Source: Minisyncoccota bacterium
GTDB taxonomy: Bacteria; Patescibacteriota; Minisyncoccia; Phycocordibacterales; GWA1-40-21
Length of the DNA stretch: 64,000 nt
Reading direction: 5' to 3'
Assembly: GCA_041663045.1 (NCBI GenBank)
Contig: JBAZRH010000001.1
Location: 212,403-276,402, forward strand
Position 1 is the stretch's first letter. Every line of letters begins with the position of its first letter. The position numbers were made by a program, and so were the translations under genes. The notes below the pieces were generated by a model. That model did not search any database. It saw nothing but the letters and a program-made list of their open reading frames with translations, and was not told the origin of the DNA. Shown one piece after another: positions 20,151-51,018 of the stretch.

Positions 20151-20154
20151 GCAT

Positions 20155-20487
20155 TTATAGTTGCTTATTATGTTTAGCTTTAATTTTCTCAATCTTCTTG
20201 CCAAGTGCGTCTGGGATATTTACATTCATAAGTTTCGCGAGGAGAAAAGTTGTAATCACTACATCGGCAAATTCATCGGAAAGGCTTTCTAAACTTCTGC
20301 CTTCCATCTTGCCTTTTCTTTGATCACCCAGATATGCCAAGACTTCATCAGACAACTCTCCAAACTCTTCCGATATCTTTACTGTACGGGATAATATCCT
20401 TTCTCGGTCAGTTTGAGTCGTATCCTTTACTGTACGAAATAATTTATCTTGATCATCTATAAATTTCTGAAATTCTTCCATGTTCAT
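20155..20487 (-). CDS. MazG-like nucleotide pyrophosphohydrolase domain protein
   Basis: 110 aa, all-helical. The EEFGELSDE (ExxE) motif is characteristic of the MazG/NTP-PPase fold. Confidence 0.65.
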   Translation of the reverse strand: MNMEEFQKFIDDQDKLFRTVKDTTQTDRERILSRTVKISEEFGELSDEVLAYLGDQRKGKMEGRSLESLSDEFADVVITTFLLAKLMNVNIPDALGKKIEKIKAKHNKQL

Positions 20488-27883: not shown

Positions 27884-29275
27884 TTAATTTAATTTCTTCA
27901 CCACCCCTCTCTCCGCATCCACTTCCACCAAGTCACCGTCACGCAGCACTCTTGTGCCTATTCTAGTGCCAACAATACATGGGATGCCCAGTTCCCTTGC
28001 TACTATCGCCGCGTGACAAGTTAAGCCCCCTTCATCTGTAATTATTGCTTTTGCCAATTTCATTATAGGCAAGAAATCTGGTCGTGTCATCTCTGCAACA
28101 ATGATATTTCCACTTTCAAATTTACTAAATTCATTTGAACCGATTATTATTGATACATTGCCTTTAGCAAAACCCCTTGCAGCGGGGGTACCAGAAAATG
28201 TTTTAATATCTTTATCAACCTTGATTTTTTCTTCAACAAACACACCTTCTCTATACGATATTTCACTATTATTCCATAGGCATGTAACATACTCTCTCTT
28301 TTCAATTCTATTAGTTGTCTCCTCGGGACTACTAATTAAATCTCCGTATTCATCCCAAAAGAGTCTATCGGCGATATTCACATCAATCTTTAGTCTACTA
28401 CATGCCTCATCTAAGAAACGGTACATTGTATAATTGCCAATCAAATTTAGTTTTTTCCTTTGATCTCTAATGACCTCAGATATTTTTAATAGTTCCAAAA
28501 TACCTATCTCTTCTTGGTTTAGTTCGAGATTGTTTAAATTAAATCCAGTCTTATCTCTGTTTGTATGCGTCGCACCTTTAAATTTTGTCTGTATCTTATC
28601 AGGTGTCATTTTTCCACTATATTTATATGAAGCATCAATATAGAAAAATAACTTATAATAATCTTCAATCAGCTCAGCACGTTTAGATTCATCTTTCTCT
28701 TCCCTTATTCTTAAAAGAAGTCTCTCATTTTCAATCATGAAACTCGTATATGGAGAATTTAAATGATTTTCAATAATTTCATTGGTATTTTTATATCTCT
28801 TAGCAAGAACCTTATGTAGGTATTCAGAAATCACTCCATCATAGACGAAAGTTATCGCCCCTGGGGCATACTTTTCTATATAGACTTTCATAAAATTAAA
28901 GTACTCTGAGACTAATTCCTTAGCATTCATCTTACCCATTCTCTGTATATCAAGTAGAGCTGTTTTTCTTAGAGATTCCGAGTCTTGTATAATTGAATTT
29001 TTTATTTCATCAAAATAATTCAAATTTTCTGGCTTACTAACAAATTTCGCGACGGATGCACACTCAGTCTTTATATGTTCATCTATTATCCATTCATCGG
29101 CCTTTTCTTTTAAAACATTAATAGTATTAGCATAAAAACCTATTTTAAATTTATTTATATAATCAGCACATCTTACGACTTCTGGTAAGACTGATACAGC
29201 AAATACTGAAGCAGCCATACCCGAAACCTTGTCTGCTATATAATAACCAGTCTTTATGTTTTTATTTATAGCCAT
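27884..29275 (-). CDS. PEP-utilising-enzyme mobile domain protein, paralog B
   Basis: 463 aa. C-terminal GTPAARGFAKGNVSII...GGLTCHAAIVARELGIPCIVGT...DGDLVEVDAERGVVKKLN. Confidence 0.7.
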   Translation of the reverse strand: MAINKNIKTGYYIADKVSGMAASVFAVSVLPEVVRCADYINKFKIGFYANTINVLKEKADEWIIDEHIKTECASVAKFVSKPENLNYFDEIKNSIIQDSESLRKTALLDIQRMGKMNAKELVSEYFNFMKVYIEKYAPGAITFVYDGVISEYLHKVLAKRYKNTNEIIENHLNSPYTSFMIENERLLLRIREEKDESKRAELIEDYYKLFFYIDASYKYSGKMTPDKIQTKFKGATHTNRDKTGFNLNNLELNQEEIGILELLKISEVIRDQRKKLNLIGNYTMYRFLDEACSRLKIDVNIADRLFWDEYGDLISSPEETTNRIEKREYVTCLWNNSEISYREGVFVEEKIKVDKDIKTFSGTPAARGFAKGNVSIIIGSNEFSKFESGNIIVAEMTRPDFLPIMKLAKAIITDEGGLTCHAAIVARELGIPCIVGTRIGTRVLRDGDLVEVDAERGVVKKLN

Positions 29276-30340
29276 CTATTTTAATTTCTTCACCACCCCC
29301 CTCTCCGCATCCACCTCCACCATATCTCCGTCTTTGAAGACTTGAGTGGCGATTTTGGTGCCGATTACGCAGGGTATTTTGAATTCTCGCGACATTATGG
29401 CGGCATGGGAAATTATACCACCCTCGTCTGTTACTATAGCTCCGGCTTTTCTAATCGCTATCATCAGGTCTGGCGTAGTTGAGCTAGAGAGTAAGACATT
29501 TCCTTCTTCAAACTTTTTCGCTTCCTCTTTCGTAAATACAATAGATACCTTGCCACGATATATTCCTTTGTATGCTATTTGCCCTTTAACAAGATTATCT
29601 GCACCTAGATGATCATCTAGCTTGGGTGTTACAAGTTCAATCCCTGTATTTTCAAGAATTTCTTTTATAGATTTTCCGGTATAAAGATGTCCGTCGGCGA
29701 AATAAAATTCTTTATATCTAATTTTTAACTCTTCTTCATCTGGAATATTCCCATTTATAATTTCGTGTAAAGTTACCATATCCGCATATTTACCAAGATT
29801 TGGATATAAAGAAAGGATTGTTGAGCGGACAATGTGATCCAAGGCGGGTGCAAACTTATCCGTCCTTTTCCTAAATTCCATCAATTTATCCAGAAGATCT
29901 GGATGTAGATTTTTCTGCTCAAACATTTCAACTGTCCACCAAAGACCTGCATACCAAGCCCAAGAATATTTGGCATCAGATATAAATTTCTCGAAATAAT
30001 CCTTAGAGACAGGCTCGCCTTTATCAAAAATAGCACCGACTTTTGCATAAGCTTTCTCGTTTTCTGCCAGCATATTTTGTACGTATGAATTGTCTGCTTT
30101 TATTTTCTTAAGGATTTCCCCTTTCTGCCACTCAACTTGTTGACTATCAATATACAAACTACCTTTTCCCGCTTTTCTCTCAGCCACAAAATAAGGCTTT
30201 TTTAAGATGATATTATCAAGATACGGCAAAGGACCGGTCTCGGTATCCAATCCGATTTCATACAATGCTAATGTAAAATCACGATGTCCAAATAATTCTA
30301 ATTTTCTTTTTTGTTTGGAAGTCATAAAAGTTTTATTCAT
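29276..30340 (-). CDS. PEP-utilising-enzyme mobile domain protein, paralog C
   Basis: 354 aa. C-terminal GQIAYKGIYRGKVSIV...GGIISHAAIMSREFKIPCVIGT...DGDMVEVDAERGVVKKLK. Confidence 0.7.
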   Translation of the reverse strand: MNKTFMTSKQKRKLELFGHRDFTLALYEIGLDTETGPLPYLDNIILKKPYFVAERKAGKGSLYIDSQQVEWQKGEILKKIKADNSYVQNMLAENEKAYAKVGAIFDKGEPVSKDYFEKFISDAKYSWAWYAGLWWTVEMFEQKNLHPDLLDKLMEFRKRTDKFAPALDHIVRSTILSLYPNLGKYADMVTLHEIINGNIPDEEELKIRYKEFYFADGHLYTGKSIKEILENTGIELVTPKLDDHLGADNLVKGQIAYKGIYRGKVSIVFTKEEAKKFEEGNVLLSSSTTPDLMIAIRKAGAIVTDEGGIISHAAIMSREFKIPCVIGTKIATQVFKDGDMVEVDAERGVVKKLK

Positions 30341-33423: not shown

Positions 33424-34218
33424 TTACTTGTTTCTATCTATCATGCGCAACTGTGCAACCAAAGTGTCTAAAAACCACAAAGCATCACGTTCTGTGGGAG
33501 TCGCGGAGTTTCCGGCATGACGAGCACCCGATGCATCTGAGGCAAATTGGTTAAGAGCTTCAAGTACTTTTTTCTGTTCCTTATGTATTTTATCTTGCTT
33601 TTCGAACTCCTTTATTGCATCACCAAATCTTGAAGCACCTGAATTTGCTTTCATATATCCTTCTGCAGCAACAAAAATATCTTTTACAATATCTTCCGGT
33701 TTCGATTTTCGTCCCATCAGATTTCCGACAGCTTGAAAAAATCTATCACAAAATTCTGGGTATGGAGCTAGGATAGATTTAGTAGAGTCAATTTTTTCTG
33801 CGCTGTCTTTATCAACAATAAGCACAACTCGCCCCTCTTTGTTAATTTCATATACAGAACCGGAAAGATTAAAAGCTTTGTAAGTTTCAACAATGACTTG
33901 AGGTCGTCTTGTGTAATATAACTCCTTGCTTAAATCTAAGAATATTTCTACAACAGTAAAGACTTCGTGAAATTTGCCTGTCTGAATAATATCAAGGGGA
34001 TTTTTGTTAGGAAATTCCTGATGAGTTTTGTATGTGAAATCATCCGGTTCTATTGACCACTGGTTATCATTACCGAGAGATACATTTCCGCCCACGAATT
34101 TTTCGACGATAACTAACAAACGATCACGAAGAGACTTGGAAACGTCTTCGTGTCCAGAGTATTCAACGACATATTCATTTCTTCTTGAGAAATAGGCCAT
34201 GTTAATTAGATTATTCAA
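33424..34218 (-). CDS. Hypothetical protein (possible stand-alone defence/Abi-like protein; unassigned)
   Basis: 264 aa, soluble, no recognisable catalytic motif. C-terminal SGARHAGNSATPTERDALWFLDTLV. Confidence 0.45.
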   Translation of the reverse strand: MNNLINMAYFSRRNEYVVEYSGHEDVSKSLRDRLLVIVEKFVGGNVSLGNDNQWSIEPDDFTYKTHQEFPNKNPLDIIQTGKFHEVFTVVEIFLDLSKELYYTRRPQVIVETYKAFNLSGSVYEINKEGRVVLIVDKDSAEKIDSTKSILAPYPEFCDRFFQAVGNLMGRKSKPEDIVKDIFVAAEGYMKANSGASRFGDAIKEFEKQDKIHKEQKKVLEALNQFASDASGARHAGNSATPTERDALWFLDTLVAQLRMIDRNK

Positions 34219-39621: not shown

Positions 39622-40167
39622 ATGGTAAAGAAAGCCAAGCAAATCGAAATACTTCAAAAAGATAACCCTGTTTTAAGACAAGTCTCTAAACCTATATCTG
39701 AAAAAGAAATATCCGGTACCGAAATCAAGAAAATCATTTCCGATATGAAAATAGCCCTAAATTCTCAAGAAGACGGTATTGCGATTTCTGCCGTTCAAAT
39801 CGGTTATTTATCAAGAATTTTTATAATTTCTAAGAAAATCTATGAAGTTTTAGGAGAAGCACCGGAAGTGGCCGGCAAGAAATCCGACCTTGTATTCATA
39901 AATCCAAAAATCAAGAAAGTTTCAAAAGACAAACAGCTTTTGGAAGAAGGTTGCCTTTCTGTAAGATATCTTTATGGCAAGGTTTTGCGTTCAGCAAAAG
40001 CCACCATCGAAGCGCTCGATGAAAACGGCAAAAAGTTTTCTCGAGGAGTCTCTGGACTTCTCGCGCAGATAGTTCAACATGAAAATGATCATTTGGACGG
40101 AATACTTTTTATAGACAAAGCTACTGATATTCAGGAAATATTGCCTGAGAGCATTAAGACGAAATAA
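39622..40167 (+). CDS. def: Peptide deformylase, paralog 2
   Basis: Motif I GIAISAVQIG, motif II EGCLSV, motif III QHENDHLDG. Immediately upstream of fmt. Confidence 0.85.
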   Translation: MVKKAKQIEILQKDNPVLRQVSKPISEKEISGTEIKKIISDMKIALNSQEDGIAISAVQIGYLSRIFIISKKIYEVLGEAPEVAGKKSDLVFINPKIKKVSKDKQLLEEGCLSVRYLYGKVLRSAKATIEALDENGKKFSRGVSGLLAQIVQHENDHLDGILFIDKATDIQEILPESIKTK

Positions 40168-40171
40168 ATAA

Positions 40172-41026
40172 ATGTTTAATAAAGTCAAAATCGTATTTTT
40201 CGGCAGTTCAGATTTCTCCGTGATTGCACTCGATGAATTAAAAAAACTCGGCATTATGCCAGAACTTATTATCTCTACTCCAGACAGACCGCAAGGCAGA
40301 AAACTCGTCCTCACACCGACTCCCGTAAAGATTTGGGCGGAAAACAATAGCGTAGAGTGTATCACTCCAGAAAAATTAAAAAATTCTGATTTCATTTCAA
40401 AAATATCCGAATACAATCTATTCGTCGTAGCCTCTTATGGGAAAATAATTCCGAAAGAGATTATTGAAATCCCAAAATATAAGATTTTGAATATTCATCC
40501 TTCCCTATTGCCAAAATATCGCGGAGCATCACCCTTGCAAGAACAAATATTAAATAATGAACAAGATATCGGCGTTTCAGTAATGCAAATAGACGAAGAA
40601 ATGGATCATGGAGCAATAATCGCTCAGAAGAAATTGGATATACTCGGCTGGCCTACCGGTTTTAGATCCACGCAAGAAACTTTGGCGAAGGCTGGCGCAG
40701 ATTTACTCGCAGAAATATTGCCTGATTGGATAAAAGGCAAAATCAAGGCAAAAGAGCAGAATCATAGCGAAGCGACATTTACAAAAAAAGTTGAGAAGTC
40801 CGACGGTCTTATAGATATCAAAAACGGTGATCAATTTAAAAATTATCTCAAAATCTTGGCCTATGAAGAGTGGCCACGTGCATTTTTTGAAATCGAAAAA
40901 GGCGGTAAAAAAATAAAAGTAATAATCACAAAAGCTATTTGGAAAGACGGCGTGCTAGAAATCCAAAAAGTCATCCCCGAAGGCAAAAAAGAAATGGATT
41001 ACAAATCTTTCTTGCTTGGACTATAA
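40172..41026 (+). CDS. fmt: Methionyl-tRNA formyltransferase
   Basis: 284 aa. N-terminal Formyl_trans_N (IVFFGSSDFSV...NIHPSLLPKYRGASP) plus a C-terminal domain. Confidence 0.9.
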   Translation: MFNKVKIVFFGSSDFSVIALDELKKLGIMPELIISTPDRPQGRKLVLTPTPVKIWAENNSVECITPEKLKNSDFISKISEYNLFVVASYGKIIPKEIIEIPKYKILNIHPSLLPKYRGASPLQEQILNNEQDIGVSVMQIDEEMDHGAIIAQKKLDILGWPTGFRSTQETLAKAGADLLAEILPDWIKGKIKAKEQNHSEATFTKKVEKSDGLIDIKNGDQFKNYLKILAYEEWPRAFFEIEKGGKKIKVIITKAIWKDGVLEIQKVIPEGKKEMDYKSFLLGL

Positions 41027-41174
41027 TCAGTATGACGCAGCACTAGTGTTTAAACCCCTATCTACCGTGTCCCAATAGTTTATTACACCGACAGATTTAA
41101 CAGAGAGATTGTAAATATAGAACATAAATATCACGATAGTTATGGTCAGTAAAATAATAAGATGTTTTTTTCTT

Positions 41175-41552
41175 TTATTGCCTATCCCCATAAAATCCTT
41201 TTAGAATTGCTTTTAATTTTGCACGACCTCTTTTTATAATACTCATTCTCCTATCTTTAAAGGACTTTAATTCATTGGCCATTTCATCATTTACAACGTC
41301 TATAGCAGCATAGAGATCATCTCTTTCTGATGTTGCCCTCAAAGATTTGCCTCCAATATGTAAGGTTAGTTCCGCTTTGAAAAAATCTCCAGATTTATGG
41401 TGCTTTGTCGTCTTGCCGATATCTACATAGCACATTACTGTCTCCAAATCTTCTGGACTTATAAATTTATCCAAATGAGAAAGTCTTTTATCAACATAAT
41501 CGGTAATCGCAGGAGTGAGAAAGATATTTGTCGTCTTAATATTATGCTTCAT
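41175..41552 (-). CDS. hpf: Ribosome hibernation promoting factor / RaiA (YfiA) family
   Basis: 125 aa. NIKTTNIFLTPAITDYVDKRL...KFI fits the sigma-54-modulation / ribosomal subunit interface family. Confidence 0.75.
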   Translation of the reverse strand: MKHNIKTTNIFLTPAITDYVDKRLSHLDKFISPEDLETVMCYVDIGKTTKHHKSGDFFKAELTLHIGGKSLRATSERDDLYAAIDVVNDEMANELKSFKDRRMSIIKRGRAKLKAILKGFYGDRQ

Positions 41553-41554
41553 GT

Positions 41555-41776
41555 TTATTTATCTAAACTTATAATTTTCCCCGGGGAGTGATGACCGCTC
41601 ACTATCCTTACATCACCATTATACACTTTAAAGTGTTCTCGAACTAGTTCTAAAATACGACCGTTTGCAAGTCCACGCTCGGCCGGCTCTTTGACCGACA
41701 CATCGAAATGATCTTCAGACTTTTTTACAAATCTTTCCTTTTTTGCCCCCGCTTGAGCTTTTACTTTTATATACAT
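41555..41776 (-). CDS. DUF167 (YggU-like) protein
   Basis: 73 aa. VKAQAGAKKERF...VKEPAERGLANGRILELVREHFKV matches the YggU pattern. Confidence 0.55.
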   Translation of the reverse strand: MYIKVKAQAGAKKERFVKKSEDHFDVSVKEPAERGLANGRILELVREHFKVYNGDVRIVSGHHSPGKIISLDK

Positions 41777-42076
41777 AAATAGATTTTACTATACTTTATA
41801 CAAAACAAAAATAGACTGAGCATACTTCCCTTTTCTCATTTCTTCTGCTAATATAATGCCCAGTTCTTTCAAGAAAATTCCGATTAAGTATTTCCCGAGT
41901 AGCAAGCGGTGAAGTGAGTGTTGGGTTGGGACCCGACACGCAAGACTTTTTTAGATAGTTTGGAGCATAGCGACAAAATATCAAAAAAGTGGACAGCTCC
42001 TGTAAGGAGGTTGCCTGTTTTGGCAACTGCACCGATATAGCTACTTTGTAAAATATTTTTTATGGAAAAATATTAT

Positions 42077-42148
42077 TCCGGAGTAGCTCAGCGGTAGAGC
42101 AGTTGCCTGTTAAGCAATTGGTCGCAGGTTCGATCCCTGCCTCCGGAG
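42077..42148 (+). tRNA. tRNA-Asn (anticodon GUU)
   Basis: TCCGGAGTAGCTCAGCGGTAGAGCAGTTGCCTGTTAAGCAATTGGTCGCAGGTTCGATCCCTGCCTCCGGAG. 7-bp acceptor stem, anticodon loop cTGTTaa, T-loop GTTCGATCC. No encoded CCA. Confidence 0.9.
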
Positions 42149-42221
42149 CAAATTAAAAACGCCACCCCTGTGTGGTGTTTTTCAATTTGCGACGGAGAGA
42201 AAGCTCTGGGAGAGCTTTCGT

Positions 42222-42319
42222 GCAGGGATCGAAAGATTTTCTATGTTTGCGAAAATCTCTATTTGAGCAAACCAGAAAATCACGCGCTGTAGGCGAGATA
42301 CCCCTGCCTCCGTAGCAAC
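42222..42319. repeat. Partial copies of the tRNA-Asn 3' end downstream of the gene (one inverted T-arm copy, one direct acceptor copy)
   Basis: cagggatcgaa at 42224-42234 is the reverse complement of ttcgatccctg in the T-arm. ccctgcctccgtagca at 42303-42318 directly repeats the 3' end ccctgcctccggagca with one mismatch. Confidence 0.6.
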
Positions 42320-42394
42320 TTGATAGTTATTATTTAATATGTTATTATGTAGAAGGAGTGAAATTAATGTTTAATAGATAAAGGAGATTAGTGT

Positions 42395-42797: not shown

Positions 42798-44753
42798 ATG
42801 GGAGAAAATCTTATTCTAGAAAAGACGTCGCCCAATAAGCTTGAACTTACTAATGAACAGTTAGAGAAATTTAACCGTATCTATAAATATCTGGGTGTAG
42901 ACACTTTCGATAGTATGTCTAACCAAAATCATGATTTTGAGAGATTCGAGAAAGAGTGGAATTCACATTCATATGATATTGAAAGGCTCACGGCCCTATT
43001 ATCCAACAGAAGAAAATGGGTAGAGATAATGTCACTTGGTCCTAAGTTTCAAGAATTCATTGAAGGAGAAATTACTAAGAATCTCGAGGATAAGACGAGA
43101 ATAGCTAGCTATAATAGATACAAACTAATAACAGACTATTTTTCATTGGGATACGATACTCCAAACAGTTTTATCATTACTTTATTAAATAATGAGACTG
43201 TATGGAACAACCCGGATGGTAGTACTATGCATAAACTATTGAACTATATTGAAAGAAAGAGGAGCCCAGAAATCACTGACGCTGTAAAACAATATATAGA
43301 GAGAATAATTGAAGATGACTATACCAGACATCAATATCTTACTGGTGATTTAGCAAACGCGTTAAATACGCTCGGTATAATTGCCAACATAGGAACAGCT
43401 AGAGATACACTCGCAAATATATTATCTAAAAAACCGTCCCTAACAGCCTATTTTGCTGGCCATGGAGATATCTTTGATGGAATATTAGGGTTATATTACA
43501 AGGAAGTCAAACCTAATGAATTTGACCCTACAAAAGAAAACGAAAGACTTAAATCTTTAGAAGAAGAACTCGCACGCCTTAAAAAACATCCGGTAGACAG
43601 ACCAAAAGATTTAGATGACGATGAAGGCTACGACGACTATTATGGTACATCTTCATTGGGAGGTATATCATTAACAGATGATCCATGGAATGAAGGTTCA
43701 CACCTTAGGGATGAGAGAATGGAAACACTAGACAAAGAGACAGACGAGATGATTGGGAGGGTTAATAATCTAACTTTAAATGAGGGCCTTGCCCCTACGG
43801 CTGTATCAGCAATTCAACTTAATGTCTTTAATTTTCTCAGACAGAGCAGCGGGGCGACTGATGAAGAAGTCATGATACGAATTGAAAAACTCAGGAGATT
43901 GTCAGATAAAGAGAAATTGTCTAGTAACATTAAAAATCCATTGCCTACCATGGGTATAGAAATAGAGATACCAATGAATGTACTAGATGGTAAAAAAGTA
44001 GCTATATTAAACAAGTTCTTTATATCAAACTACCGAGAAATACTGGATGATTTGTGGGAAGTCAACCCAGATTTCTCATATTGTGCAGAAACACAAGCAC
44101 GAATAATACAAGAATTAGCAAAGATGGGAGCTCTACCGATTGATCGAGCTACCAAAAAGATAGATGACTACAGTCTCCTCTCTCTTCATGTAAATTTTGG
44201 TATACCAAGCGGTATTACGGGAGAAGATCTGGATAAATATCAGATAAAAATGGAATTAATGAACGACGTATTAATATATGCATATTCCTCAATAAATAGA
44301 ATAAAGGGAAGAAAGACTAATACATCTCTGACGTGGAATCATGCGGCTTCTTCAAGTGAAAAGAATAGTAATGGTATAGATCAGATTAGGGTTCGTAGTC
44401 AGGCCGTCAGACTTGAGTTGAGAGCGAATGAATTTAAAGATTACCCGACGTACAGAATGCTATCTGAATCGCAAGAAATCGTCGCAATGTTCTGTTCTTA
44501 CCTAAAGGTTAAAGAGGGATTACAGTATACTTTTGTCGATGCATATCTGTCAGATTTGTGGGATAAATTCGAGATAGAGGTATCTAACTATCTTAAGTCT
44601 GAAGGGTTATCACCAAACTCAGTCGATATGAACAGAGACCTTGTTATAGAGAAAATGCAAAATACTGATATACAAAAATGGTCAAGATTTCTTGTCTTTG
44701 ATTATGCAAAGAAAGTAAGAGAAGTGATTAAAGATATAGTTCCGGTTATATAA
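42798..44753 (+). CDS. Large hypothetical protein (651 aa), no confident domain
   Basis: Continuous ORF, helix-rich with acidic patches. The segment PTMGIEIEIPMNVLDG weakly recalls the first strand of GCS2/amidoligase-type carboxylate-amine ligases; this is very tentative. Confidence 0.55.
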   Translation: MGENLILEKTSPNKLELTNEQLEKFNRIYKYLGVDTFDSMSNQNHDFERFEKEWNSHSYDIERLTALLSNRRKWVEIMSLGPKFQEFIEGEITKNLEDKTRIASYNRYKLITDYFSLGYDTPNSFIITLLNNETVWNNPDGSTMHKLLNYIERKRSPEITDAVKQYIERIIEDDYTRHQYLTGDLANALNTLGIIANIGTARDTLANILSKKPSLTAYFAGHGDIFDGILGLYYKEVKPNEFDPTKENERLKSLEEELARLKKHPVDRPKDLDDDEGYDDYYGTSSLGGISLTDDPWNEGSHLRDERMETLDKETDEMIGRVNNLTLNEGLAPTAVSAIQLNVFNFLRQSSGATDEEVMIRIEKLRRLSDKEKLSSNIKNPLPTMGIEIEIPMNVLDGKKVAILNKFFISNYREILDDLWEVNPDFSYCAETQARIIQELAKMGALPIDRATKKIDDYSLLSLHVNFGIPSGITGEDLDKYQIKMELMNDVLIYAYSSINRIKGRKTNTSLTWNHAASSSEKNSNGIDQIRVRSQAVRLELRANEFKDYPTYRMLSESQEIVAMFCSYLKVKEGLQYTFVDAYLSDLWDKFEIEVSNYLKSEGLSPNSVDMNRDLVIEKMQNTDIQKWSRFLVFDYAKKVREVIKDIVPVI

Positions 44754-44964
44754 ATCTAATTTTCTCTGACTCAACCGTAATCCTCCCCCACTCCACAATT
44801 CTGAACTTGCTCACAAGATGGAGCCAGTTAGGACAACCAAATGTATTGATATTTCTATCGACTTGACATCATTTGGTGGTTTGATATACTTTCTATATTA
44901 AGACGAAGAGGGATCCAAACGGTTCACTACCTAAGGAGCCCTTTTCTTTTTATACGGAATTGTT

Positions 44965-45459
44965 TTATTTGATCTTCTCCTTAATATCTTTACTTTCTAA
45001 ATAATCAAAATATTCAGAACCAAGAGATTTATACAAGGACGAAGCAAATTTCTTGTTCGGAAACAGGATTTTTCCAAATTTATTTTCTTCAATCAAAAAA
45101 TCGACCAGTGCTTTAAAATCTCCATCTCCTGAGACCAAAATAATCTTATCAAAAGGTTCGCCTTTGTAGATTTTTTTCATTATTTGAAATACAATTTCAG
45201 TATCGACATTGCCTTTCTTTTTACCTAGCATGGCCGAATTATGTTCTCTGAATTTTAGGATCATCCCTGATTTTTGGATTTTATCATATAATTCATCATT
45301 CTCGTCCTGAACATAACCTAGAAAATAATACACATCTGACACATTGTATTTTCTTTCCAGATATATTTTGAATTTAACCAAATTAATTTCCCAAGGCGAA
45401 TTACAGCTTTTAGTCCCCATATATAGGTTCTGTCCATCAATAAAAGCAATGTTTTTCAT
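44965..45459 (-). CDS. NYN-domain (LabA/DUF88-like, PIN-related) protein
   Basis: 164 aa. IAFIDGQNLY, VDTEIV and LVSGDGDF acidic motifs are characteristic of NYN ribonuclease domains. Confidence 0.75.
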   Translation of the reverse strand: MKNIAFIDGQNLYMGTKSCNSPWEINLVKFKIYLERKYNVSDVYYFLGYVQDENDELYDKIQKSGMILKFREHNSAMLGKKKGNVDTEIVFQIMKKIYKGEPFDKIILVSGDGDFKALVDFLIEENKFGKILFPNKKFASSLYKSLGSEYFDYLESKDIKEKIK

Positions 45460-45696
45460 GCGGTAGATTATAACATAATTTGAATTACCAATGCAGGAAA
45501 AGTACTTAAAACTCCACTCGACTCAAGCTCATTTTTAATTTTATTCCAGTTTGCAGTTCTAAATGTATCAACTAGTTGGAGCCGTAAAGCAAAACCCTTT
45601 GACTCTAAATCAATAATATCCTAGTATGATTTATGAAGGGAGCATAACCCATAAAAAAGCCAACTGATTTTCAGTTGTGTTCTAGGAGAAATAAAG

Positions 45697-46317
45697 ATGA
45701 AGATGAAAAGGACTGCATTACTGTCAGTATTCGACAAGACTGGTATTGTCGAGTTCGGACGCGACCTAAATAATCTCGGCTTCGATATTCTTGCCTCAGG
45801 CGGAACAGCTCGGGCTTTGACTGAAGCTGGTATCGAAGTCACTGATGTGGCTACAATTGTCGGTGAGCCGATTCTTGGTCACCGAGTTGTTACACTGTCG
45901 CGCCAGATCCACGCTGCCCTGCTTGCCCAAGACAATGAAGAAGACAGGGCAGAACTGGCAAGGATCGGTATTCCTAAGATCGATCTCGTATACGTGAACA
46001 TGTATCCGCTGGAAGCAGAAGTGGCAAAAGATGGACACACGCTCCAGAGCGTTATCGAGAAGACCGACATCGGCGGACCGACCATGTTACGTTCGGCAGC
46101 CAAGGGACGCCGTATTGTCATGTGCCACCCCGATCAAATTCCTTCAGTTCTGGCAACGATAAAGGAACAGGACTTCATGAACGGCGGCAAGATGTGCGAG
46201 TCGTTCCTTTCCACGCTTGTAAGCATCGCGGAACGGACGGTCAGTGCATACTGTCTCTGCTCGGCGGATTTCCATGCGGAGGTCGCACGGAATCTCGAAT
46301 TTGTCGAGAAAGATTGA
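45697..46317 (+). pseudogene. purH: Fragment of purH (IMP cyclohydrolase MGS-like domain only), catalytic motifs degenerate, GC-rich
   Basis: ALLSVFDKTGIVEFGRDL...SGGTARAL...YVNMYPL...DIGGPTMLRSAAKG is collinear with the PurH N-terminus. The conserved GRVKTLHPKIHGG reads GHRVVTLSRQIHAA. The ORF ends after about 200 aa with no AICAR-transformylase domain. Confidence 0.6.
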
Positions 46318-46438
46318 TCGGCTTCGTCATAGTTGAATCGCCAAGGATTGTATCCTTGGCGATTTTTTTATACTTTACTTTTTGTCATAAAAGTATAGTA
46401 TCAGAAATAGAAATTTACTCGTTTGAGTATACTGTTCC

Positions 46439-48610
46439 TTGACAAGAACAGAGCAGATAGGAAACAAAAATAAACAGAAAGTAGAGGTAGAGAAAATGAT
46501 AGCAAAATTAGTTAGGAACTTCGGTCTATACGAAGTCTGTTTCTACATTGAAATGATTTCGGAAATGACCCTGGCAGAACTTCAAAAACTCCGCTGGGTA
46601 ATTGCCGAGACCTTCGAACCATTGCTTACGGGAGATCGTCATTCCTATAGCGAAGGTTCGTTTGTGGAAATTGGTCCGCGTCTCAACGTGGAAACACCTT
46701 TTTCAACCAATGCTGTGGCAATTTGCCATGCAATGGGTTTGGACAAGGTGGTTCGGATTGAACAGTCGAAAATATACAAACTGGATGGAGCCACGCGTGA
46801 AGAAATTCTCGCACAACATTTGGATCAGATGACGTAAGTTGTCTATCCACCTGGTGGTATCTCCAGTTTCAGTCTTGATTCGATCACAGCAGAAGTGCAG
46901 ATCATCCCAGTTCTTGAACAGGGAGAAGATGCACTACGAGCAGCGAACAAATTGCTCGGCCTCGGCATGGACAGTTGGGATATCACCTACTATACGGAAC
47001 TTTTCCGCAAGTATGGGAGAAATCCAACCGACGTGGAGCTATTCCAAATCGGTAATGCCAACAGCGAGCATTGTCGTCACTGGTACTTCAAAGGGAAGAT
47101 GGTGATCGACGGCGTGGAAATGCCGGAGTGTTTGCTCGATATCGTTCGGGCGCCGCTTCTTGCAGTTTCTGGCTTAAATGTCAGCATGCTCGCATTCAAC
47201 GATAACGTTGGTGCCTTGTATGGTCATCGGGTGCAGTTTTTTGTACCAGCAAATCCCGGGCAACCCTCGGAATTTAAGTCGGTACAGAGAACACTTCATC
47301 CGACAGCGACTGCGGAAACGCATAATCATCCGACACTCATCGCCCCCTATCCAGGAGCGGCGACGAAAATCGGTGGTCGTATCCGTGATACCTGCGCCGG
47401 CGGACGTGGATCGCTCATCGGGTTTGGAACAGCGGGATATTGCGTCGGTAATCTGTTCCTTCCTGGCGATTACAAAATCCCTGGTGAGGTCATTGGTGGC
47501 GAGGTAAGCAATAAGCATGCAACGCCACTTCGAATTCTCCTTGAAGGAAGTAACGGAGACTTCGACTACGGAAATCAATTCGGTGAGCCGACAATTGGTG
47601 GCTTTACCAGAACCTTTTGCCAGATAGTTAGTGGCGAAAGGCGCGAGTTCCGTAAGCCGATCTTTTACGGCGGCGGAGTTGGTCACATTGAGGACAAGCA
47701 CACGAAAAAGCAGACCCCTGAAAAAGGAATGCTTATCGTGGCTATCGGTGGGCCGGCCTATGATATTGGTTTTGGCGGTGGGGCCGCATCGAGTATGGCA
47801 CAAGGTCAAAATGACGCCGGGCTTGATTTCAAATCAGTTCAGCGTGGTAACGGCGAGATGGGCAATAAAGCTGTTCGCGTCATTCGAGCGTGCGTGGAGA
47901 TGGGAGACAAAAATCCTATTGAAGCAATTCACGATCAAGGCGCGGGCGGTCCAAGCAATGTCATAACCGAACTCGTCGAGATTATTGGCGGACGGGCAGA
48001 CATTCGACAGATTCGTCTTGGCGACAAGACGATGGCCGTCATCTCCATCTGGAGTGCTGAATATCAGGAGCGCTATGGCTTCCTGATCAAGCCGGACTGT
48101 CGGAAGCTGTTCGAGGATATTTGCGCTCGTGAACGGGTGAACTGCGAAATACTGGGAGAGATTACTGGCGATGGGTACATCACGGTGATTGACTCAGCAA
48201 AAAACACGACACCTGTTCATCTCAATCTGCGAGATATCTTGGGCAAGTTGCCGCAGAAGACGTTCAAGTCCGATCACAAGCCGATGGATCTCAAACCACT
48301 AGAATTACCCGACGATTTGTCGTTCAACGACGCGGCAGAAATTGTCCTGAAGCAGGTATCTGTCGGATCGAAGGGTTTCCTGGTACGGAAAGTGGATCGG
48401 AGCGTCGGTGGACGCGTGGTGCAACAACAGTGTTGTGGCGCAAGTCAGGTGCCGATCGGAAATGTTCAAGTCTTGGCTGGCGGACCGGATGGAAATAATC
48501 CTACATTATTGAATCAGAGATTGCATCAGCTTCTAATGATAACCGTCTGTATTATACTACCTTCATTTGCATTGAGTGTTGCAGGCAAATACTTGAACGA
48601 TAAGTCTTAG
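46439..48610 (+). pseudogene. purL: Disrupted large-type purL (FGAM synthetase): N-terminal roughly 700 aa in two frames, C-terminus replaced
   Basis: 46439-46837 encodes a PurL N-domain (ETPFSTNAVAICHAMGLDKVVRIE). 46895-48540 contains NSEHCRH and AETHNHP motifs. A frame break lies between 46837 and 46895. The last about 23 aa (ILPSFALSVAGKYLNDKS) match the C-terminus of the small membrane protein at 50428-50613. Confidence 0.7.
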
Positions 48611-48794
48611 ACACCCTTGCCTTTATTTTTTATTTTTCTCCGATCTTAAACTTGTAATCTGGAGTGATTCAAAGTTATTAAACTTAGCTAACGCTGATTT
48701 GACTTTGGTATAGACTAGTGTTAGCCTAATGAAAGATTAGTAAAGAGAGTTTACAAACTCTTTAAAAACAACAAAATATACAAAGGAGACGTCT

Positions 48795-49391
48795 GTGAAG
48801 AACGAATACAGCGTGGAGTCATTTATCCGTGACCAGTTGGTAAAATTGGTTTCGGATTTCACCAGTCTGAATGCAATGTTCATCTCATACCGACCGATTG
48901 GTGAATACCAAGATGGCTTGGTAAAGACAAATAAAGATGGCCTGCAGATTTTCGTCTCAAAAGGAAAAGAGGCCAACCAAGATCTTGCGGCATTAGGTAT
49001 ATGGACGCTTGCCCATGGCACGATCGAAGAAGATGTCGCTTATCACAATACCTGCCAAAGGATTGCCACAAACGAAGTCGCAGGAGTTGTCGGGAAAATA
49101 CCAAGTGAAAGAAAGAGCGATGTCTTGGTAATTTATCTCGGCTTGAGTGGCTTCAATGCGGCGGTTGAATTCATAAGGAAGACAAAAGAAACTATCCCTG
49201 CCATGAAAGTCGTGGCAGTGACTTGTGACTGTGACCTCGAATCCAAGAGGCCTACGGCTTCCCTTCTGATTGCATCCGGAGAGATTGACTATTTCGTCGT
49301 CACCAAAGGTTGCGGCGGCACTGGCGCGATGTCGAAAATTCTGGAAGCAATGATTGAGACATGGCCGAGTAAGGAACCGGTTCCAGCCTGA
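48795..49391 (+). CDS. Hypothetical protein (GTG start, strong SD), moderately GC-elevated
   Basis: AAAGGAG sits 7 nt upstream of GTG at 48795. 198 aa with no recognisable domain. Terminator downstream. Confidence 0.5.
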   Translation: MKNEYSVESFIRDQLVKLVSDFTSLNAMFISYRPIGEYQDGLVKTNKDGLQIFVSKGKEANQDLAALGIWTLAHGTIEEDVAYHNTCQRIATNEVAGVVGKIPSERKSDVLVIYLGLSGFNAAVEFIRKTKETIPAMKVVAVTCDCDLESKRPTASLLIASGEIDYFVVTKGCGGTGAMSKILEAMIETWPSKEPVPA

Positions 49392-49414
49392 TCAACATGA
49401 CCAAAAGTTGTTCT

Positions 49415-49448
49415 AACCCGCTATCATAGGATGGCGGGTTTTGTTTTG
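49415..49448 (+). terminator. Rho-independent terminator
   Basis: aacccgctatcat-agg-atggcgggtt followed by TTGTTTTG. Confidence 0.7.
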
Positions 49449-49608
49449 TATAAATTTGGTGCCTTTTCTTTTAGGTCTCAACCGCTAATATAAGCCTATG
49501 TCATAAGGGTTATTTTTGATATCTCAATAAGATCTATAACTAGTCAACATTTAAATTGATTTAGGAGTATAATATGAATACAGTTTAACAGTTTATTAAC
49601 TAAAATTT

Positions 49609-50148
49609 ATGAATAAAAAAATATTATACATCTTATCTGTCTTGTTTGTGTTTGCATTAGTAGGTGCAACCGGTGTTTATGCCGATGAAAGATCTGACGA
49701 TGAAGAATCAGACAATGCTACTAGCTCAATCGGTGAGCAACATAGAAGTAGAGTTGCTGATTTTGCAGAAGAATTAGAAAAAATTGACGATAAAGATGAT
49801 GCAGTTGAAAATGAAATAAAGACAATTGCTCGTGAAGAAAAAGATACAAGTGAAAGAGTAAAAGAAAAGATGGATAAAGTTGAGAAAAGAAATGGTTTCA
49901 AGATTTTTCTAATAGGTTCAGACTATAAGAATCTTGGGGCTTTAAGAAGCGAGCTAGTATCAACAGAAAACCGTCTAAATAGATTAAATAAAGCTCTTGC
50001 TAAGACAACTAGCTCATCGACTCAAGCCGAGCTACAAACGCAAATCGACGAGCTTACTACAATTAAAACAGAAGCGGATTCTTTTGTTAAAGACAATGAA
50101 AGCAAATTCAGTCTGCTGGGCTGGCTTGTAAGAATGTTTAACAGATAG
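49609..50148 (+). CDS. Secreted charged coiled-coil protein
   Basis: Signal peptide MNKKILYILSVLFVFALVGATGVYA, then acidic and coiled-coil-like sequence. Confidence 0.5.
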   Translation: MNKKILYILSVLFVFALVGATGVYADERSDDEESDNATSSIGEQHRSRVADFAEELEKIDDKDDAVENEIKTIAREEKDTSERVKEKMDKVEKRNGFKIFLIGSDYKNLGALRSELVSTENRLNRLNKALAKTTSSSTQAELQTQIDELTTIKTEADSFVKDNESKFSLLGWLVRMFNR

Positions 50149-50427: not shown

Positions 50428-50613
50428 ATGCAAAAAATAGCAACAAAAATATTCGTTATTGCCTCTATCACTTTCGTAATCTTGGGTACTATCATGATAC
50501 TCACTGGAGGACCAGACAAGGGAGGAATAATACAAGAATTATTTTTTATAAACGTATTTATAATACTGTCTTCGTTTGCGCTTAGCGTCGCTGGTAAATA
50601 TCTCAAAAGTTAA
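50428..50613 (+). CDS. Small two-TM membrane protein (tandem paralog 2)
   Basis: 61 aa with two helices separated by GGPDKGG. Its C-terminal 20 aa and 3' nucleotides are shared with the tail fused to the purL fragment at 48541-48610. Confidence 0.45.
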   Translation: MQKIATKIFVIASITFVILGTIMILTGGPDKGGIIQELFFINVFIILSSFALSVAGKYLKS

Positions 50614-50622
50614 AATAACCAT

Positions 50623-51018
50623 ATGAACGCATACAACTGGTACTCGCAACTTATCAAACCATCGTGGTCACCACCGAGCTGGCTTTTTGGCCCTGTGTGG
50701 ACTTTTCTTTATGTCTTAATTGCACTTTCATTTGGTAAGGTATTCTTGATGGCCTTTAGAAAAGAGATTACTTTGATTGTTGTCTTGCCCTTCGTTCTAA
50801 ACCTGATTTTTAACTTTGCGTTTACATCGTTGCAATTTGGACTCAAAGATAATCTTTTGGCTTCAATAGATATCTTGCTTGTTCTCGGCACACTCATCTG
50901 GGCAATGGTGGCTATTTATCCACACGCCCGTTGGGTTGCCTATATACAAATACCATATTTACTCTGGGTTTCATTTGCTACAGTTTTACAAATAACCATT
51001 ACTTATTTGAATAGATAA
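50623..51018 (+). CDS. TspO/MBR (tryptophan-rich sensory protein) family membrane protein, short form
   Basis: 131 aa. LIKPSWSPPSWLFGPVWTFLY signature and several Trp-containing TM helices. Confidence 0.65.
   Translation: MNAYNWYSQLIKPSWSPPSWLFGPVWTFLYVLIALSFGKVFLMAFRKEITLIVVLPFVLNLIFNFAFTSLQFGLKDNLLASIDILLVLGTLIWAMVAIYPHARWVAYIQIPYLLWVSFATVLQITITYLNR

What the first reader, a model, noticed from the sequence alone, without database searches (positions are those of the whole stretch)
45697..48610. Decayed purine-biosynthesis gene fragments (purH', purL') in a GC-rich insert fused to a native small membrane-protein gene
A higher-GC block encodes the MGS-like IMP-cyclohydrolase domain of PurH. 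Its catalytic motif is mutated (GRVKTLHPKIHGG reads GHRVVTLSRQIHAA) and it stops after about 200 aa. Next comes about 700 aa of a large-type PurL, split by a frame break near 46840-46895. It then stops abruptly.

The final about 70 nt (48541-48610) are instead homologous to the 3' end of the small membrane-protein gene at 50428-50613 (...ILPSFALSVAGKYLNDKS versus ...IILSSFALSVAGKYLKS). So foreign purine-pathway DNA appears to have landed in a paralog of that gene and is now eroding. This is a snapshot of horizontal gene transfer followed by gene loss. The organism otherwise looks metabolically reduced.
Basis: partly seen in the sequence, partly recalled or inferred. Interest (0 to 1): 0.55.

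Follow-up and report, generated by a model that had tools for sequence, protein, structure and literature searches.

The report
Broken purL beside intact PurH-like gene
In this small-genome (Patescibacteria) bacterium one purine-synthesis gene, purL, has recently been broken by a stop codon and a deletion that fused it to half of a tiny membrane-protein gene. The supposed decayed purH fragment next to it is an intact member of a widespread, uncharacterised family of short PurH-like proteins.

Summary
The homologies are real, but the reading is only half right.

**purL' (46496-48478)**
- It is a genuine large-type purL remnant, residues 1-662 of about 1260.
- It is not frameshifted. It carries one in-frame TAA (46835-46837) at a Gln codon.
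- It ends at a short microhomology (VLA / TTGGCTG), where it joins residues 24-67 of a 67-69-aa Patescibacteria membrane protein (48479-48610).
- Its nearest relatives (60-87% identity) are intact purL genes of other Patescibacteria. These often sit beside purN or purC/E.
- One relative (L029) has purL at the same place in the def-fmt-hpf-tRNA-Asn ... TspO neighbourhood.
- dN/dS is about 0.08 and shows no branch-specific relaxation, so the breakage is recent.

**purH' (45697-46317)**
- It is not decayed.
- It belongs to a large family of stand-alone proteins of about 200 aa.
- The 'mutated' motif GHRVVTLSR(E/Q)IHAALLA is nearly invariant in that family.
- dN/dS is about 0.06.

**GC content**
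- High GC3 is a property of both gene families in low-GC Patescibacteria. It is not evidence of a foreign insert.

**Verdict**
- This is ordinary recent gene loss, next to a mildly interesting uncharacterised IMP-cyclohydrolase-like family.

The parts
45697..46317 (+). Intact stand-alone IMP-cyclohydrolase-like (MGS-domain) gene, 206 aa. NCBI calls it hypothetical protein WC631_01275 of a Candidatus Paceibacterota MAG, 204 aa from the second Met.
   Evidence: Pfam MGS E 2.5e-20. PurH positions 3-164 of 510. The family profile aligns to human ATIC residues 5-199, the whole cyclohydrolase domain, with E 5e-48. The family has about 200 aa and a near-invariant GHRVVTLSR(E/Q)IHAALLA motif. Only one deviation at conserved columns. 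dN 0.108, dS 1.70 against L090.
45599..45627 (+). Promoter-like site upstream of the PurH-like gene. A Shine-Dalgarno-like AGGAG lies about 8 nt before the ATG.
   Evidence: Consensus scan, 9 of 12 matches. Sequence read. This is a weak consensus match only.
46335..46365 (+). Intrinsic terminator of the PurH-like gene: 14-bp stem followed by a T run. It makes the gene monocistronic and separate from purL'.
   Evidence: sequence.
46496..46837 (+). purL' 5' piece: ATG 46496, N-terminal (PurS-like) domain, ending at the premature in-frame TAA (46835-46837). L004 and L003 have Gln at that position.
   Evidence: Pfam FGAR-AT_N E 1.7e-11. Continuous-frame translation. Homologue sequences. Q114>stop is one of only 7 unique changes at otherwise invariant columns.
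46838..48478 (+). purL' continuation in the same frame: linker, A1/B1 half of the FGAM-synthetase domain, and the first ~37 residues of the second half. Homology to PurL stops at ...NVQVLA.
   Evidence: TIGR01735 positions 158-698 of 1307, 599.8 bits against a cut-off of 1123. Pfam linker, AIRS_C and FGAR-AT_PurM_N-like positions 1-37 of 160. One tblastn HSP covers residues 1-662 of the 1259-aa L004 PurL at 87%.
48470..48479 (+). Deletion junction. GTC TTG GCT G (V-L-A) is shared by PurL (L004: GTC TTG GCT GAT) and by members of the small-protein family (P0314: ILAGGPDG). This is microhomology at the breakpoint.
   Evidence: Codon-by-codon comparison. Family member sequences.
48479..48610 (+). 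Tail derived from residues about 24-67 of a 67-69-aa two-helix Patescibacteria membrane protein. The loop and second helix are kept; the first helix and start are lost. Stop TAG at 48608-48610.
   Evidence: tblastn against small61 E 3e-9. 76% identity over 42 aa without gaps to P0314, E 9e-21. GC falls to 0.386. Hydropathy.
50428..50613 (+). Intact 61-aa paralogue of the same small membrane-protein family (WC631_01305), directly upstream of TspO.
   Evidence: More than 500 family hits of 61-69 aa in Patescibacteria. Pfam finds TspO in the next gene.
39622..42149 (.). Left synteny anchor shared with relative L029: def (39622-40167), fmt (40172-41026), hpf (41175-41552, minus strand), tRNA-Asn (42077-42149).
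   Evidence: Pfam. tRNA. Colinear tblastn/tblastx matches to L029 3592-6483.
50623..51018 (+). Right synteny anchor: TspO/MBR gene, 76% identical to L029 20250-20636.

Best explanation
The two genes have different histories.

**1. purL' is a Patescibacteria-type large purL at a conserved chromosomal position.**
- It lies downstream of def-fmt-hpf-tRNA-Asn and upstream of TspO and bipA.
- It has recently been inactivated by two events. The first is a C>T nonsense change (CAA Gln > TAA) at codon 114. The second is a deletion with a breakpoint in a short microhomology (TTGGCTG, V-L-A).
- The deletion removed PurL codons 663 to the end, that is, half of the synthetase domain and the whole glutaminase domain. 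It also removed whatever lay in between and the first ~23 codons of a downstream 67-69-aa membrane-protein gene.
- The result is an accidental in-frame purL'-membrane-helix fusion. It cannot make FGAM and is most likely not a working product.
- purN, which sits beside purL in relatives, is absent from the window. This fits a lineage that is giving up de novo purine synthesis.
- Whether this copy was inherited vertically or came earlier from another Patescibacteria lineage is not resolved.

**2. The neighbouring 'purH fragment' is an intact gene under purifying selection, with its own terminator.**
- It belongs to a widespread stand-alone IMP-cyclohydrolase-domain family of about 200 aa.
- The family keeps the nucleotide-phosphate motif (SGGT) and the equivalents of human ATIC Tyr104, Asp125 and Lys137.
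- It has a fixed remodelling of the GGRVKTLHP loop to GHRVVTLSR (Lys66 > Val).
- It probably still binds a purine-nucleotide-like ligand. Whether it cyclises FAICAR or does something else is inferred, not shown.

**Shown versus inferred.** Shown: the anatomy, family membership, synteny and selection statistics. Inferred: the deletion mechanism, the loss of function and the ligand.
For: **Lesions**
- Single in-frame TAA; same frame throughout.
- Gln at that codon in L004 and L003.
- Breakpoint and microhomology.
- The tail corresponds to residues 24-67 of a family member.
- No PurL C-terminal remnant anywhere in the window.

**Native purL type**
- Most of the 80 best genome loci are Patescibacteria, and those mapped carry mostly intact ORFs of 1270-1300 aa.
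- L004 (87% identity) has purL, then purC/E, then purN.
- purN lies immediately upstream of purL in L029 and nine other loci, most of them Patescibacteria.
- About a third of CPR MAGs in one study encode the complete de novo purine pathway (PMC11608272).

**Synteny**
- L029 is colinear for def, fmt, hpf, tRNA-Asn, purL and TspO.
- purL is linked to bipA in L010, L013 and L046, and to fmt in L020 and L053.

**Recency**
- Window-branch N/S is 50/89 against 36/71 on the L004 branch.
- 7 unique changes at invariant columns, against 4-25 in the intact copies.
- Pairwise dN 0.078, dS 0.94.

**PurH-like family**. It sits in varied housekeeping contexts and is never next to purL.

**Second assembly**: identical across both junctions.

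**Recurrent purL decay in the clade**: in-frame TAG at a Gln codon in L003; two frameshifts in L011.
Against: - The purL' copy is compositionally atypical for this genome (GC3 0.52-0.54 against a background of 0.33 +/- 0.06, z about 3).
- It shows no AT-ward amelioration despite dS 0.94 to L004.
- It is 87% identical to L004 but only 60% to the syntenic L029. L004 shares no flanking genes within 10 kb. Earlier transfer between Patescibacteria, or replacement of the resident copy, is therefore not excluded.
- No intact relative with purL followed by a 67-aa small gene was found. The pre-deletion arrangement is thus inferred.
- Only 64 kb of a 428,695-bp contig was seen, so pur genes may exist elsewhere in the genome.
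- The absence of relaxed constraint could also mean that the pieces are still used.
- The Logan contig may derive from the same reads as the JGI assembly.
Confidence: 0.72

Rival explanations
1. First reader's model. A block of foreign purine-pathway DNA (purH plus purL) was inserted by horizontal transfer into a paralogue of the small membrane-protein gene. Both genes are now decaying.
For: The GC and GC3 of purH', purL' and the next ORF are the three highest in the window. The 3' end is fused to a small-gene fragment. The region lies downstream of a tRNA gene that has a nearby repeat of its 3' end.
Against: - purH' is intact and conserved. It is separated from purL' by its own terminator.
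- The two genes are not neighbours in any other genome examined, so they are not one imported block.
- There is no 5' half of the small gene upstream.
- There are no flanking direct repeats, integrase or phage-family hits.
- purL is at the same locus in L029.
- The same GC3 excess is seen for both families in many other low-GC Patescibacteria.
Confidence: 0.07
2. The purL copy was acquired fairly recently from another Patescibacteria lineage with about 50% GC (L004-like). It may have replaced a resident purL, and it was then broken in the recipient. This is transfer within the phylum followed by loss.
For: - 87% identity to L004, whose own genes have matching GC3 (0.54), against 60% to the syntenic L029.
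- No net GC>AT drift on the window branch (66 against 60) despite host GC3 of 0.33.
- Incongruence: L010 has purL 71% but bipA 50%, whereas L046 has purL 60% but bipA 65%.
- The 74-80% clade mixes MAGs labelled Falkow-, Uhr-, Staskawicz- and 'Saccharibacteria'.
Against: - A gene landing at exactly the ancestral purL position is improbable without homologous replacement. 60% protein identity is too low for easy recombination.
- A GC3 of about 0.5 is seen in intact purL of four other low-GC hosts, and likewise in the unrelated MGS family even between core genes. This points to a gene-intrinsic effect rather than repeated recent transfer.
- No mobile-element genes are adjacent.
Confidence: 0.17
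3. The truncated pieces are functional: a PurS-like N-domain protein plus a membrane-anchored half-synthetase with a new role. The premature stop might also be read through.
For: dN/dS is about 0.08 with no excess on the window branch. The tail supplies a hydrophobic helix in frame. All columns invariant in 12 homologues are retained in the surviving part.
Against: - The stop falls inside the N-domain (DQMT*V), not at a domain boundary. The next start (GTG 46895) has no Shine-Dalgarno sequence.
- Half of the pseudo-dimeric synthetase core and the whole glutaminase domain are missing. Large PurL needs its N-terminal, glutaminase and synthetase domains (PMC7124931).
- No other database protein shares the fusion; the only full-length match is this contig's own protein.
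- TAA is the normal stop of 38 of 56 ORFs here, and no other conserved gene carries an internal stop.
- Low dN/dS is expected if the breakage is simply very recent.
Confidence: 0.03
4. Assembly chimera or sequencing error created the stop codon and the purL-small-gene junction.
For: A GC shift occurs exactly at the junction. The Logan contig ends at 48582, inside the tail.
Against: - An independently built contig is 100% identical over 3658 bp, including the TAA and both junctions, and extends 104 nt past the junction.
- The junction is in frame and lies in a microhomology.
- The contig is 428,695 bp with normal gene order on both sides.
- NCBI holds proteins for the neighbours but none for purL', which is consistent with a pseudogene call (inference).
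Confidence: 0.02

Closest known systems
Large-type FGAM synthase PurL (TIGR01735; Salmonella/E. coli lgPurL; PDB-characterised)
   Same: The N-terminal domain, the linker and the first AIRS-like half of the synthetase domain are clearly homologous (599.8 bits). The remnant is 87% identical to an intact Patescibacteria PurL that lies in a pur gene cluster.
   Different: Only 662 of about 1260 residues remain. There is an internal TAA. The second half of the synthetase domain and the glutaminase domain are absent. A foreign membrane helix is fused at the C-terminus. The score is below the family cut-off of 1123 bits.
Stand-alone IMP cyclohydrolase domains: archaeal PurH2 (e.g. Archaeoglobi) and ForH of formycin biosynthesis (PDB 6NKO, 216 aa)
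   Same: It is a separately encoded protein of about 200 aa that covers exactly the N-terminal cyclohydrolase (MGS-like) domain of PurH. The ForH match has E 1e-22 for the protein and 4e-32 for the family profile. Separate PurH2 genes are documented in archaea (PMC3261824).
   Different: Archaeal PurH2 domains conserve all four residues, Lys66, Tyr104, Asp125 and Lys137 (PMC3261824). The Patescibacteria family has Val at the Lys66 position and Ser-Arg in place of His-Pro, essentially invariantly. It is not linked to other pur genes. No member has been characterised, as far as the searches here show.
Bifunctional PurH/ATIC (AICAR transformylase / IMP cyclohydrolase)
   Same: The family profile aligns to human ATIC residues 5-199 with E 5e-48. 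The SGGT, Tyr, Asp-Ile-Gly-Gly and Ala-Ala-Lys motifs are present.
   Different: There is no AICAR-transformylase domain. The protein scores 157 bits against a cut-off of 402 for the equivalog model. The Lys66 loop is remodelled.
Pseudogenes formed by nonsense mutation and microhomology-mediated deletion in reduced genomes of symbionts and parasites
   Same: There is a C>T nonsense change at a Gln codon, an internal deletion with a few bases of microhomology, loss of a biosynthetic pathway gene, and parallel lesions in related lineages (L003 TAG, L011 frameshifts).
   Different: Nothing material. This is a caught-early example in which the remaining sequence is still unscarred.

Membership tests
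Large-type PurL (FGAM synthase, TIGR01735 / PRK05297) | Whole-protein score at or above the curated cut-off | tested here: not met
   599.8 bits against 1123 (TIGR01735); 559.6 against 783 (PRK05297) for the 571-aa ORF.
Large-type PurL (FGAM synthase, TIGR01735 / PRK05297) | Uninterrupted ORF of about 1260-1300 aa | tested here: not met
   In-frame TAA at 46835-46837. Homology ends at residue 662 of 1259. Relatives have open frames of 1269-1305 aa.
Large-type PurL (FGAM synthase, TIGR01735 / PRK05297) | N-terminal (PurS-like) domain and linker | tested here: met
   FGAR-AT_N E 1.7e-11; FGAR-AT_linker E 2.3e-13. The N-domain is cut by the stop codon.
Large-type PurL (FGAM synthase, TIGR01735 / PRK05297) | Complete duplicated synthetase domain (two PurM_N-like plus AIRS_C halves) | tested here: not met
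   Only one AIRS_C is present, plus positions 1-37 of 160 of the second PurM_N-like module.
Large-type PurL (FGAM synthase, TIGR01735 / PRK05297) | C-terminal glutaminase domain (GATase_5) | tested here: not met
   There is no hit in the ORF and no remnant elsewhere in the window. It is present in L002 and L003.
Bifunctional PurH (TIGR00355 / PRK00881) | Both the IMP-cyclohydrolase and AICAR-transformylase domains; score above cut-off | tested here: not met
   Only model positions 3-164 of 510 match. 156.9 bits against a cut-off of 402. There is no PF01808 hit.
IMP cyclohydrolase domain (PurH2 / ForH type) | MGS-like domain covering the whole cyclohydrolase domain | tested here: met
   PF02142 positions 1-94 of 94. 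The family profile aligns to ATIC 5-199. ForH 6NKO E 1e-22.
IMP cyclohydrolase domain (PurH2 / ForH type) | Catalytic residues equivalent to human Lys66, Tyr104, Asp125, Lys137 (PMC3261824) | tested here: not met
   Tyr103, Asp124 and Lys136 are present and invariant in the family. The Lys66 position is Val65, invariant in the 28-sequence alignment.
IMP cyclohydrolase domain (PurH2 / ForH type) | Enzymatic conversion of FAICAR to IMP | not testable with these tools
   This needs an enzyme assay.
Patescibacteria stand-alone MGS family (about 200 aa, GHRVVTLSR motif; unnamed) | Length of about 190-230 aa, ending at the cyclohydrolase domain boundary | tested here: met
   206 aa. 110 of the 120 best relatives are 185-235 aa, median 204.
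Patescibacteria stand-alone MGS family (about 200 aa, GHRVVTLSR motif; unnamed) | Motif G-H-[RK]-V-V-T-L-S-R-x-[IVL]-H-A | tested here: met
   GHRVVTLSRQIH is present. The pattern was found in 110 of 120 relatives; the other ten did not fit the pattern as written. The window protein has one deviation (E70Q) at columns that are at least 90% conserved.
Patescibacteria stand-alone MGS family (about 200 aa, GHRVVTLSR motif; unnamed) | Purifying selection | tested here: met
   dN 0.108, dS 1.70 against L090.
Small 61-69-aa two-helix membrane protein family of Patescibacteria (unnamed) | Full-length ORF starting MQKIAT..., with two hydrophobic helices | tested here: not met
   The tail holds only residues about 24-67 (loop and second helix). 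No first half lies upstream of the block. The neighbour at 50428-50613 is a full member.
Horizontally acquired genomic island | Absent from the same locus in relatives | tested here: not met
   L029 has purN-purL between the same anchors.
Horizontally acquired genomic island | Integrase, transposase or phage genes, or flanking direct repeats | tested here: not met
   No bracketing repeats. No such Pfam or PHROG hits in 42798-50148. A 20-nt repeat of the tRNA-Asn 3' end lies only 167 nt downstream and does not bracket the block.
Horizontally acquired genomic island | Atypical base composition specific to this locus | tested here: inconclusive
   GC3 z is about 3 in the window. The same excess accompanies both gene families in other low-GC genomes.

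The most novel reading that the evidence does not exclude
The stand-alone PurH-like protein of about 200 aa is not a leftover of purine synthesis. It would instead represent an uncharacterised, phylum-wide Patescibacteria enzyme or nucleotide-binding protein. Its remodelled active-site loop (Lys66>Val, His-Pro>Ser-Arg) would give it an activity other than canonical FAICAR cyclisation, for example in nucleotide salvage or in sensing of IMP/AICAR-like ligands. It is retained even in lineages such as this one that are discarding purL and purN. A linked oddity is that this gene and purL keep a GC3 0.1-0.2 above their host genomes across many lineages.
Probability: 0.3. Interest if true: 0.55.

Novelty: new variant of a known kind. 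Interest (0 to 1): 0.32.

Why it matters
The purL' remnant is a clean, early-stage example of how a reduced-genome bacterium loses a biosynthetic gene. It shows one nonsense mutation and one microhomology deletion, with the rest of the gene still unscarred. Related Patescibacteria show independent lesions in the same gene. This is useful as an illustration but not surprising.

The more useful outcome is a correction. The short 'mutated' PurH-like ORF should not be annotated as a pseudogene or as bifunctional PurH. It belongs to a conserved stand-alone family with a fixed change at a residue considered important for cyclohydrolase activity. The family is spread through Patescibacteria, and its function is unknown. 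Clarifying it would bear on how these organisms, many of which lack full nucleotide synthesis, handle purine nucleotides.

The result also gives a caution for genome scans. High GC3 in these two gene families is not a reliable sign of recent foreign origin.

Tried and rejected
- **Frameshift model.** Rejected. Both purL ORFs share one frame with one TAA. An early codon alignment that started at 46497 gave 20% identity. It was a one-base frame error of mine and was corrected to 46496.
- **Stop-codon recoding (TAA or TAG read as Gln).** Considered because the window has TAA, and L003 has TAG, at Gln codons. Rejected as the main reading. TAA ends 38 of 56 ORFs, and the housekeeping genes are intact under code 11. 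C>T changes at CAA/CAG are the commonest route to stop codons.
- **5' half of the small gene upstream of 45697.** Searched for; none found.
- **Repeats bracketing the block.** None found.
- **Small-protein homologue downstream of purL in 80 related loci.** None found. The contexts of the two best tail relatives, P0314 and P0264, have no purL. The pre-deletion arrangement therefore could not be reconstructed.
- **ORF 48795-49391 as a remnant of the PurL C-terminus.** No similarity. It has no Pfam, NCBIfam or PHROG hit.
- **purH'-purL adjacency as a conserved operon.** Rejected; it is not seen in any other genome.
- **Literature on Patescibacteria purL or stand-alone cyclohydrolase.** The searches found only general statements.
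- **Long-read assemblies (MFD contigs L002/L051, L012) with split purL.** Not counted as pseudogenes, because indel errors are likely there (my judgement).
- **Not used.** Structure prediction, the fold search and the protein-representatives search, because sequence matches to solved PurH structures were already at E 1e-35 to 1e-48.


Full report
**What is at the coordinates**

The window is a chromosomal stretch of a Patescibacteria (CPR) bacterium.
- It carries uvrB, tgt, a ClpB-like ATPase, dnaX, dus, def, fmt, hpf, acetate kinase, phosphoketolase, bipA and truB.
- Two of its proteins are held by NCBI as hypothetical proteins WC631_01275 and WC631_01305 of a Candidatus Paceibacterota MAG, on a contig of 428,695 bp.

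Three ORFs fill the flagged interval.
- 45697-46317 matches the N-terminal MGS-like / IMP-cyclohydrolase part of PurH.
- 46439-46837 and 46895-48610 match large-type PurL.
- GC rises from about 0.33 to 0.52 across the block and falls again at 48480.

**Corrections to the observation**

- The two PurL ORFs are in one reading frame. Translation from 46439 runs straight through a single TAA at 46835-46837. A single tblastn alignment covers residues 1-662 of the closest intact PurL at 87% identity.
- The codon is Gln in both closest homologues, so the lesion is a CAA>TAA transition, not a frameshift.
- The true start is ATG 46496, behind a purine-rich ribosome-binding stretch.
- PurL homology ends at ...NVQVLA (48478). 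The 132 nt that follow, not 70, derive from a small membrane protein.
- That small protein family is large: 61-69 aa, with more than 500 database hits in Patescibacteria.
- The tail matches the 67-69-aa subtype better than the neighbouring 61-aa gene. It is 76% identical over 42 residues, without gaps, to residues 24-65 of P0314.
- Members of that subtype read ILAGGPDG and PurL reads VLADGYFG. The breakpoint therefore lies in a shared V/I-L-A stretch (GTC TTG GCT G), which is a microhomology.
- A contig from a different assembly pipeline (Logan, SRR18595301) is identical over 44925-48582. It contains the stop codon and both boundaries.

**The PurH-like ORF is not a decayed fragment**

A database search returned well over a hundred clusters of proteins of about 200 aa at 52-82% identity. 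Named examples come from Paceibacterota, Taylorbacteria, Andersenbacteria and Colwellbacteria MAGs.

- Among the 120 best, the median length is 204 aa and 110 are 185-235 aa. 110 match the pattern GH[RK]VVTLSRx[IVL]H; the other ten did not fit the pattern as written.
- In a 28-sequence alignment, H62, V64, V65, T66, L67, S68, R69, H72 and A73 are invariant. So are the SGGT phosphate motif, Tyr103, Asp124 and Lys136.
- The family profile aligns to human ATIC residues 5-199, which is the entire cyclohydrolase domain. The protein therefore ends at a domain boundary.
- The window's copy departs from columns that are at least 90% conserved at one position only (E70Q), shared with its closest relative. 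Family members range from 0 to 9 such departures.
- Against the closest relative with DNA (L090), dN is 0.108 and dS is 1.70.
- The gene has its own strong terminator at 46335-46365.
- In six other genomes it is a solitary gene in unrelated, largely housekeeping surroundings, for example between rpsR and efp, or between recG and the trigger-factor gene. It is never next to purL.

Stand-alone cyclohydrolase domains are known: archaeal PurH2, and ForH of formycin biosynthesis (PDB 6NKO), which this protein matches at E 1e-22. Archaeal PurH2 keeps all four residues Lys66, Tyr104, Asp125 and Lys137 (PMC3261824). This family has Val at the Lys66 position. It is thus a distinct, conserved variant whose activity is unknown.

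**The purL remnant is a native-type gene at a conserved locus**

- A scan of one genome per species found the closest PurL genes (60-89% in the best segment) mostly in Patescibacteria MAGs. Those mapped carry mostly uninterrupted frames of 1269-1305 aa.
- The closest, L004 (87% over 657 aligned codons), lies in a cluster: purL, a 421-aa ORF, a purC/purE fusion and purN.
- purN lies directly upstream of purL in L029 and nine further loci, most of them Patescibacteria.
- One study reports a complete de novo purine pathway in about a third of CPR MAGs (PMC11608272). An intact purL in this phylum is therefore ordinary.
- L029 is colinear with the window for def, fmt, hpf, tRNA-Asn, purL and TspO, the last at 76% identity.
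- purL is also linked to fmt in L020 and L053, and to bipA in L010, L013 and L046.
- No 5' half of the small gene lies upstream of the block. No repeats bracket it. No integrase or phage-family hits are nearby.

The simplest geometry is a deletion that ran from codon 663 of purL into codon ~24 of a downstream small gene. It is not an insertion of foreign DNA into that gene.

**How recent, and is it eroding?**

With six outgroups, substitutions were assigned by parsimony to each branch.

| Measure | Window branch | L004 branch |
|---|---|---|
| Non-synonymous / synonymous changes | 50 / 89 | 36 / 71 |

- The window copy has 7 unique changes at otherwise invariant columns, one of which is the stop. 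The intact copies have 4-25.
- Pairwise dN/dS to L004 is 0.078/0.94.
- Beyond the two lesions there is no sign of relaxed constraint. The inactivation is therefore very recent relative to the divergence from L004.
- The surviving product cannot be a FGAM synthase. It lacks the second half of the duplicated synthetase domain and the glutaminase domain. Large PurL depends on its N-terminal, synthetase and glutaminase domains acting together (PMC7124931).
- Related lineages show independent damage in the same gene: an in-frame TAG at a Gln codon in L003 and two frameshifts in L011.
- The window has no purN or other pur gene.

**The GC argument**

purH', purL' and the next ORF (48795-49391) have the three highest GC3 values among 56 ORFs in the window: 0.55, 0.52 and 0.51, against 0.33 +/- 0.06. 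The same excess accompanies these gene families elsewhere.
- Intact purL has GC3 of about 0.50 in hosts whose other genes have 0.29-0.36 (L007, L008, L010, L058).
- The stand-alone MGS gene exceeds its neighbours by 0.07-0.2 in four of four other genomes, even between core genes, and its overall GC exceeds its flanks in L090.

Composition therefore cannot be used here as evidence of a foreign insert.

It remains unexplained. The window's purL' shows no AT-ward drift (66 GC>AT against 60 AT>GC changes) despite dS 0.94. It is also much closer to L004 (87%) than to the syntenic L029 (60%). An earlier transfer between Patescibacteria lineages is therefore not excluded, and I give it about 0.17.

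**Verdict**

The purL decay and fusion are real. The claims of purH decay and of a foreign insert landing in a paralogue are not supported.
- The event is ordinary, recent gene loss in a reduced genome.
- The by-product of some interest is the conserved, uncharacterised stand-alone cyclohydrolase-like family with a fixed Lys66>Val loop, together with the unexplained gene-specific GC3 excess.

Noticed in passing
window 42135-42154 and 42302-42321: There is a 20-nt direct repeat (90% identical) of the 3' end of tRNA-Asn, 167 nt downstream of the tRNA. It looks like an attachment-site scar, but it does not bracket the pur block.
   Followed up: no
window 48795-49391 (terminator 49415-49440): A 198-aa ORF lies directly after the purL' tail. 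Its GC3 is 0.51, the third highest in the window. It has no Pfam, NCBIfam or PHROG hit, no similarity to PurL and no homologue in the 90 fetched loci.
   Followed up: partly
window 26436-27881, 27884-29275, 29276-30340 (minus strand): Three tandem paralogous genes each end in a PEP-utilising-enzyme mobile domain. Their N-terminal parts of 280-400 aa have no Pfam match.
   Followed up: no
window 19614-20204 (-) and 39622-40167 (+): There are two peptide deformylase genes in one 64-kb stretch of a reduced genome. Only the second lies in the usual def-fmt pair.
   Followed up: no
L004 13563-14828: In the closest relative's pur cluster, a 421-aa ORF without any Pfam hit sits between purL and a purC/purE fusion, followed by purN. 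It is a candidate for an unrecognised pathway component.
   Followed up: no
L003 3288-3290; L011 11320-11700: There are independent lesions in close purL relatives. L003 has an in-frame TAG at a Gln codon (78% identical copy). A Uhrbacteria MAG (L011) has two frameshifts and a gap of about 40 aa. This suggests recurrent loss of purL in this clade.
   Followed up: partly
L007, L008, L010, L058 (purL); L084, L086, L087, L089, L090 (MGS gene): Both gene families keep a GC3 roughly 0.1-0.2 above the surrounding genes in many low-GC Patescibacteria genomes, including where they sit between core housekeeping genes. The cause is unknown.
   Followed up: partly
window 44965-45459 (-); L054 8770-9246; L011 8610-9095: An NYN-domain gene lies next to purL in the window and in at least two other Patescibacteria loci (65% and 39% identity), although in a different orientation.
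   Followed up: no
P0147, P0230, P0239: A few relatives of the stand-alone MGS protein are 289-332 aa. They carry the same GHRVVTLSR motif followed by the first ~100 residues of the AICAR-transformylase domain. They may be intermediates in the loss of that domain.
   Followed up: no
window 33424-34218 (-): This ORF has a weak AbiJ N-terminal domain 4 match (E 1e-5, below the curated cut-off). It is a possible abortive-infection-type defence gene.
   Followed up: no
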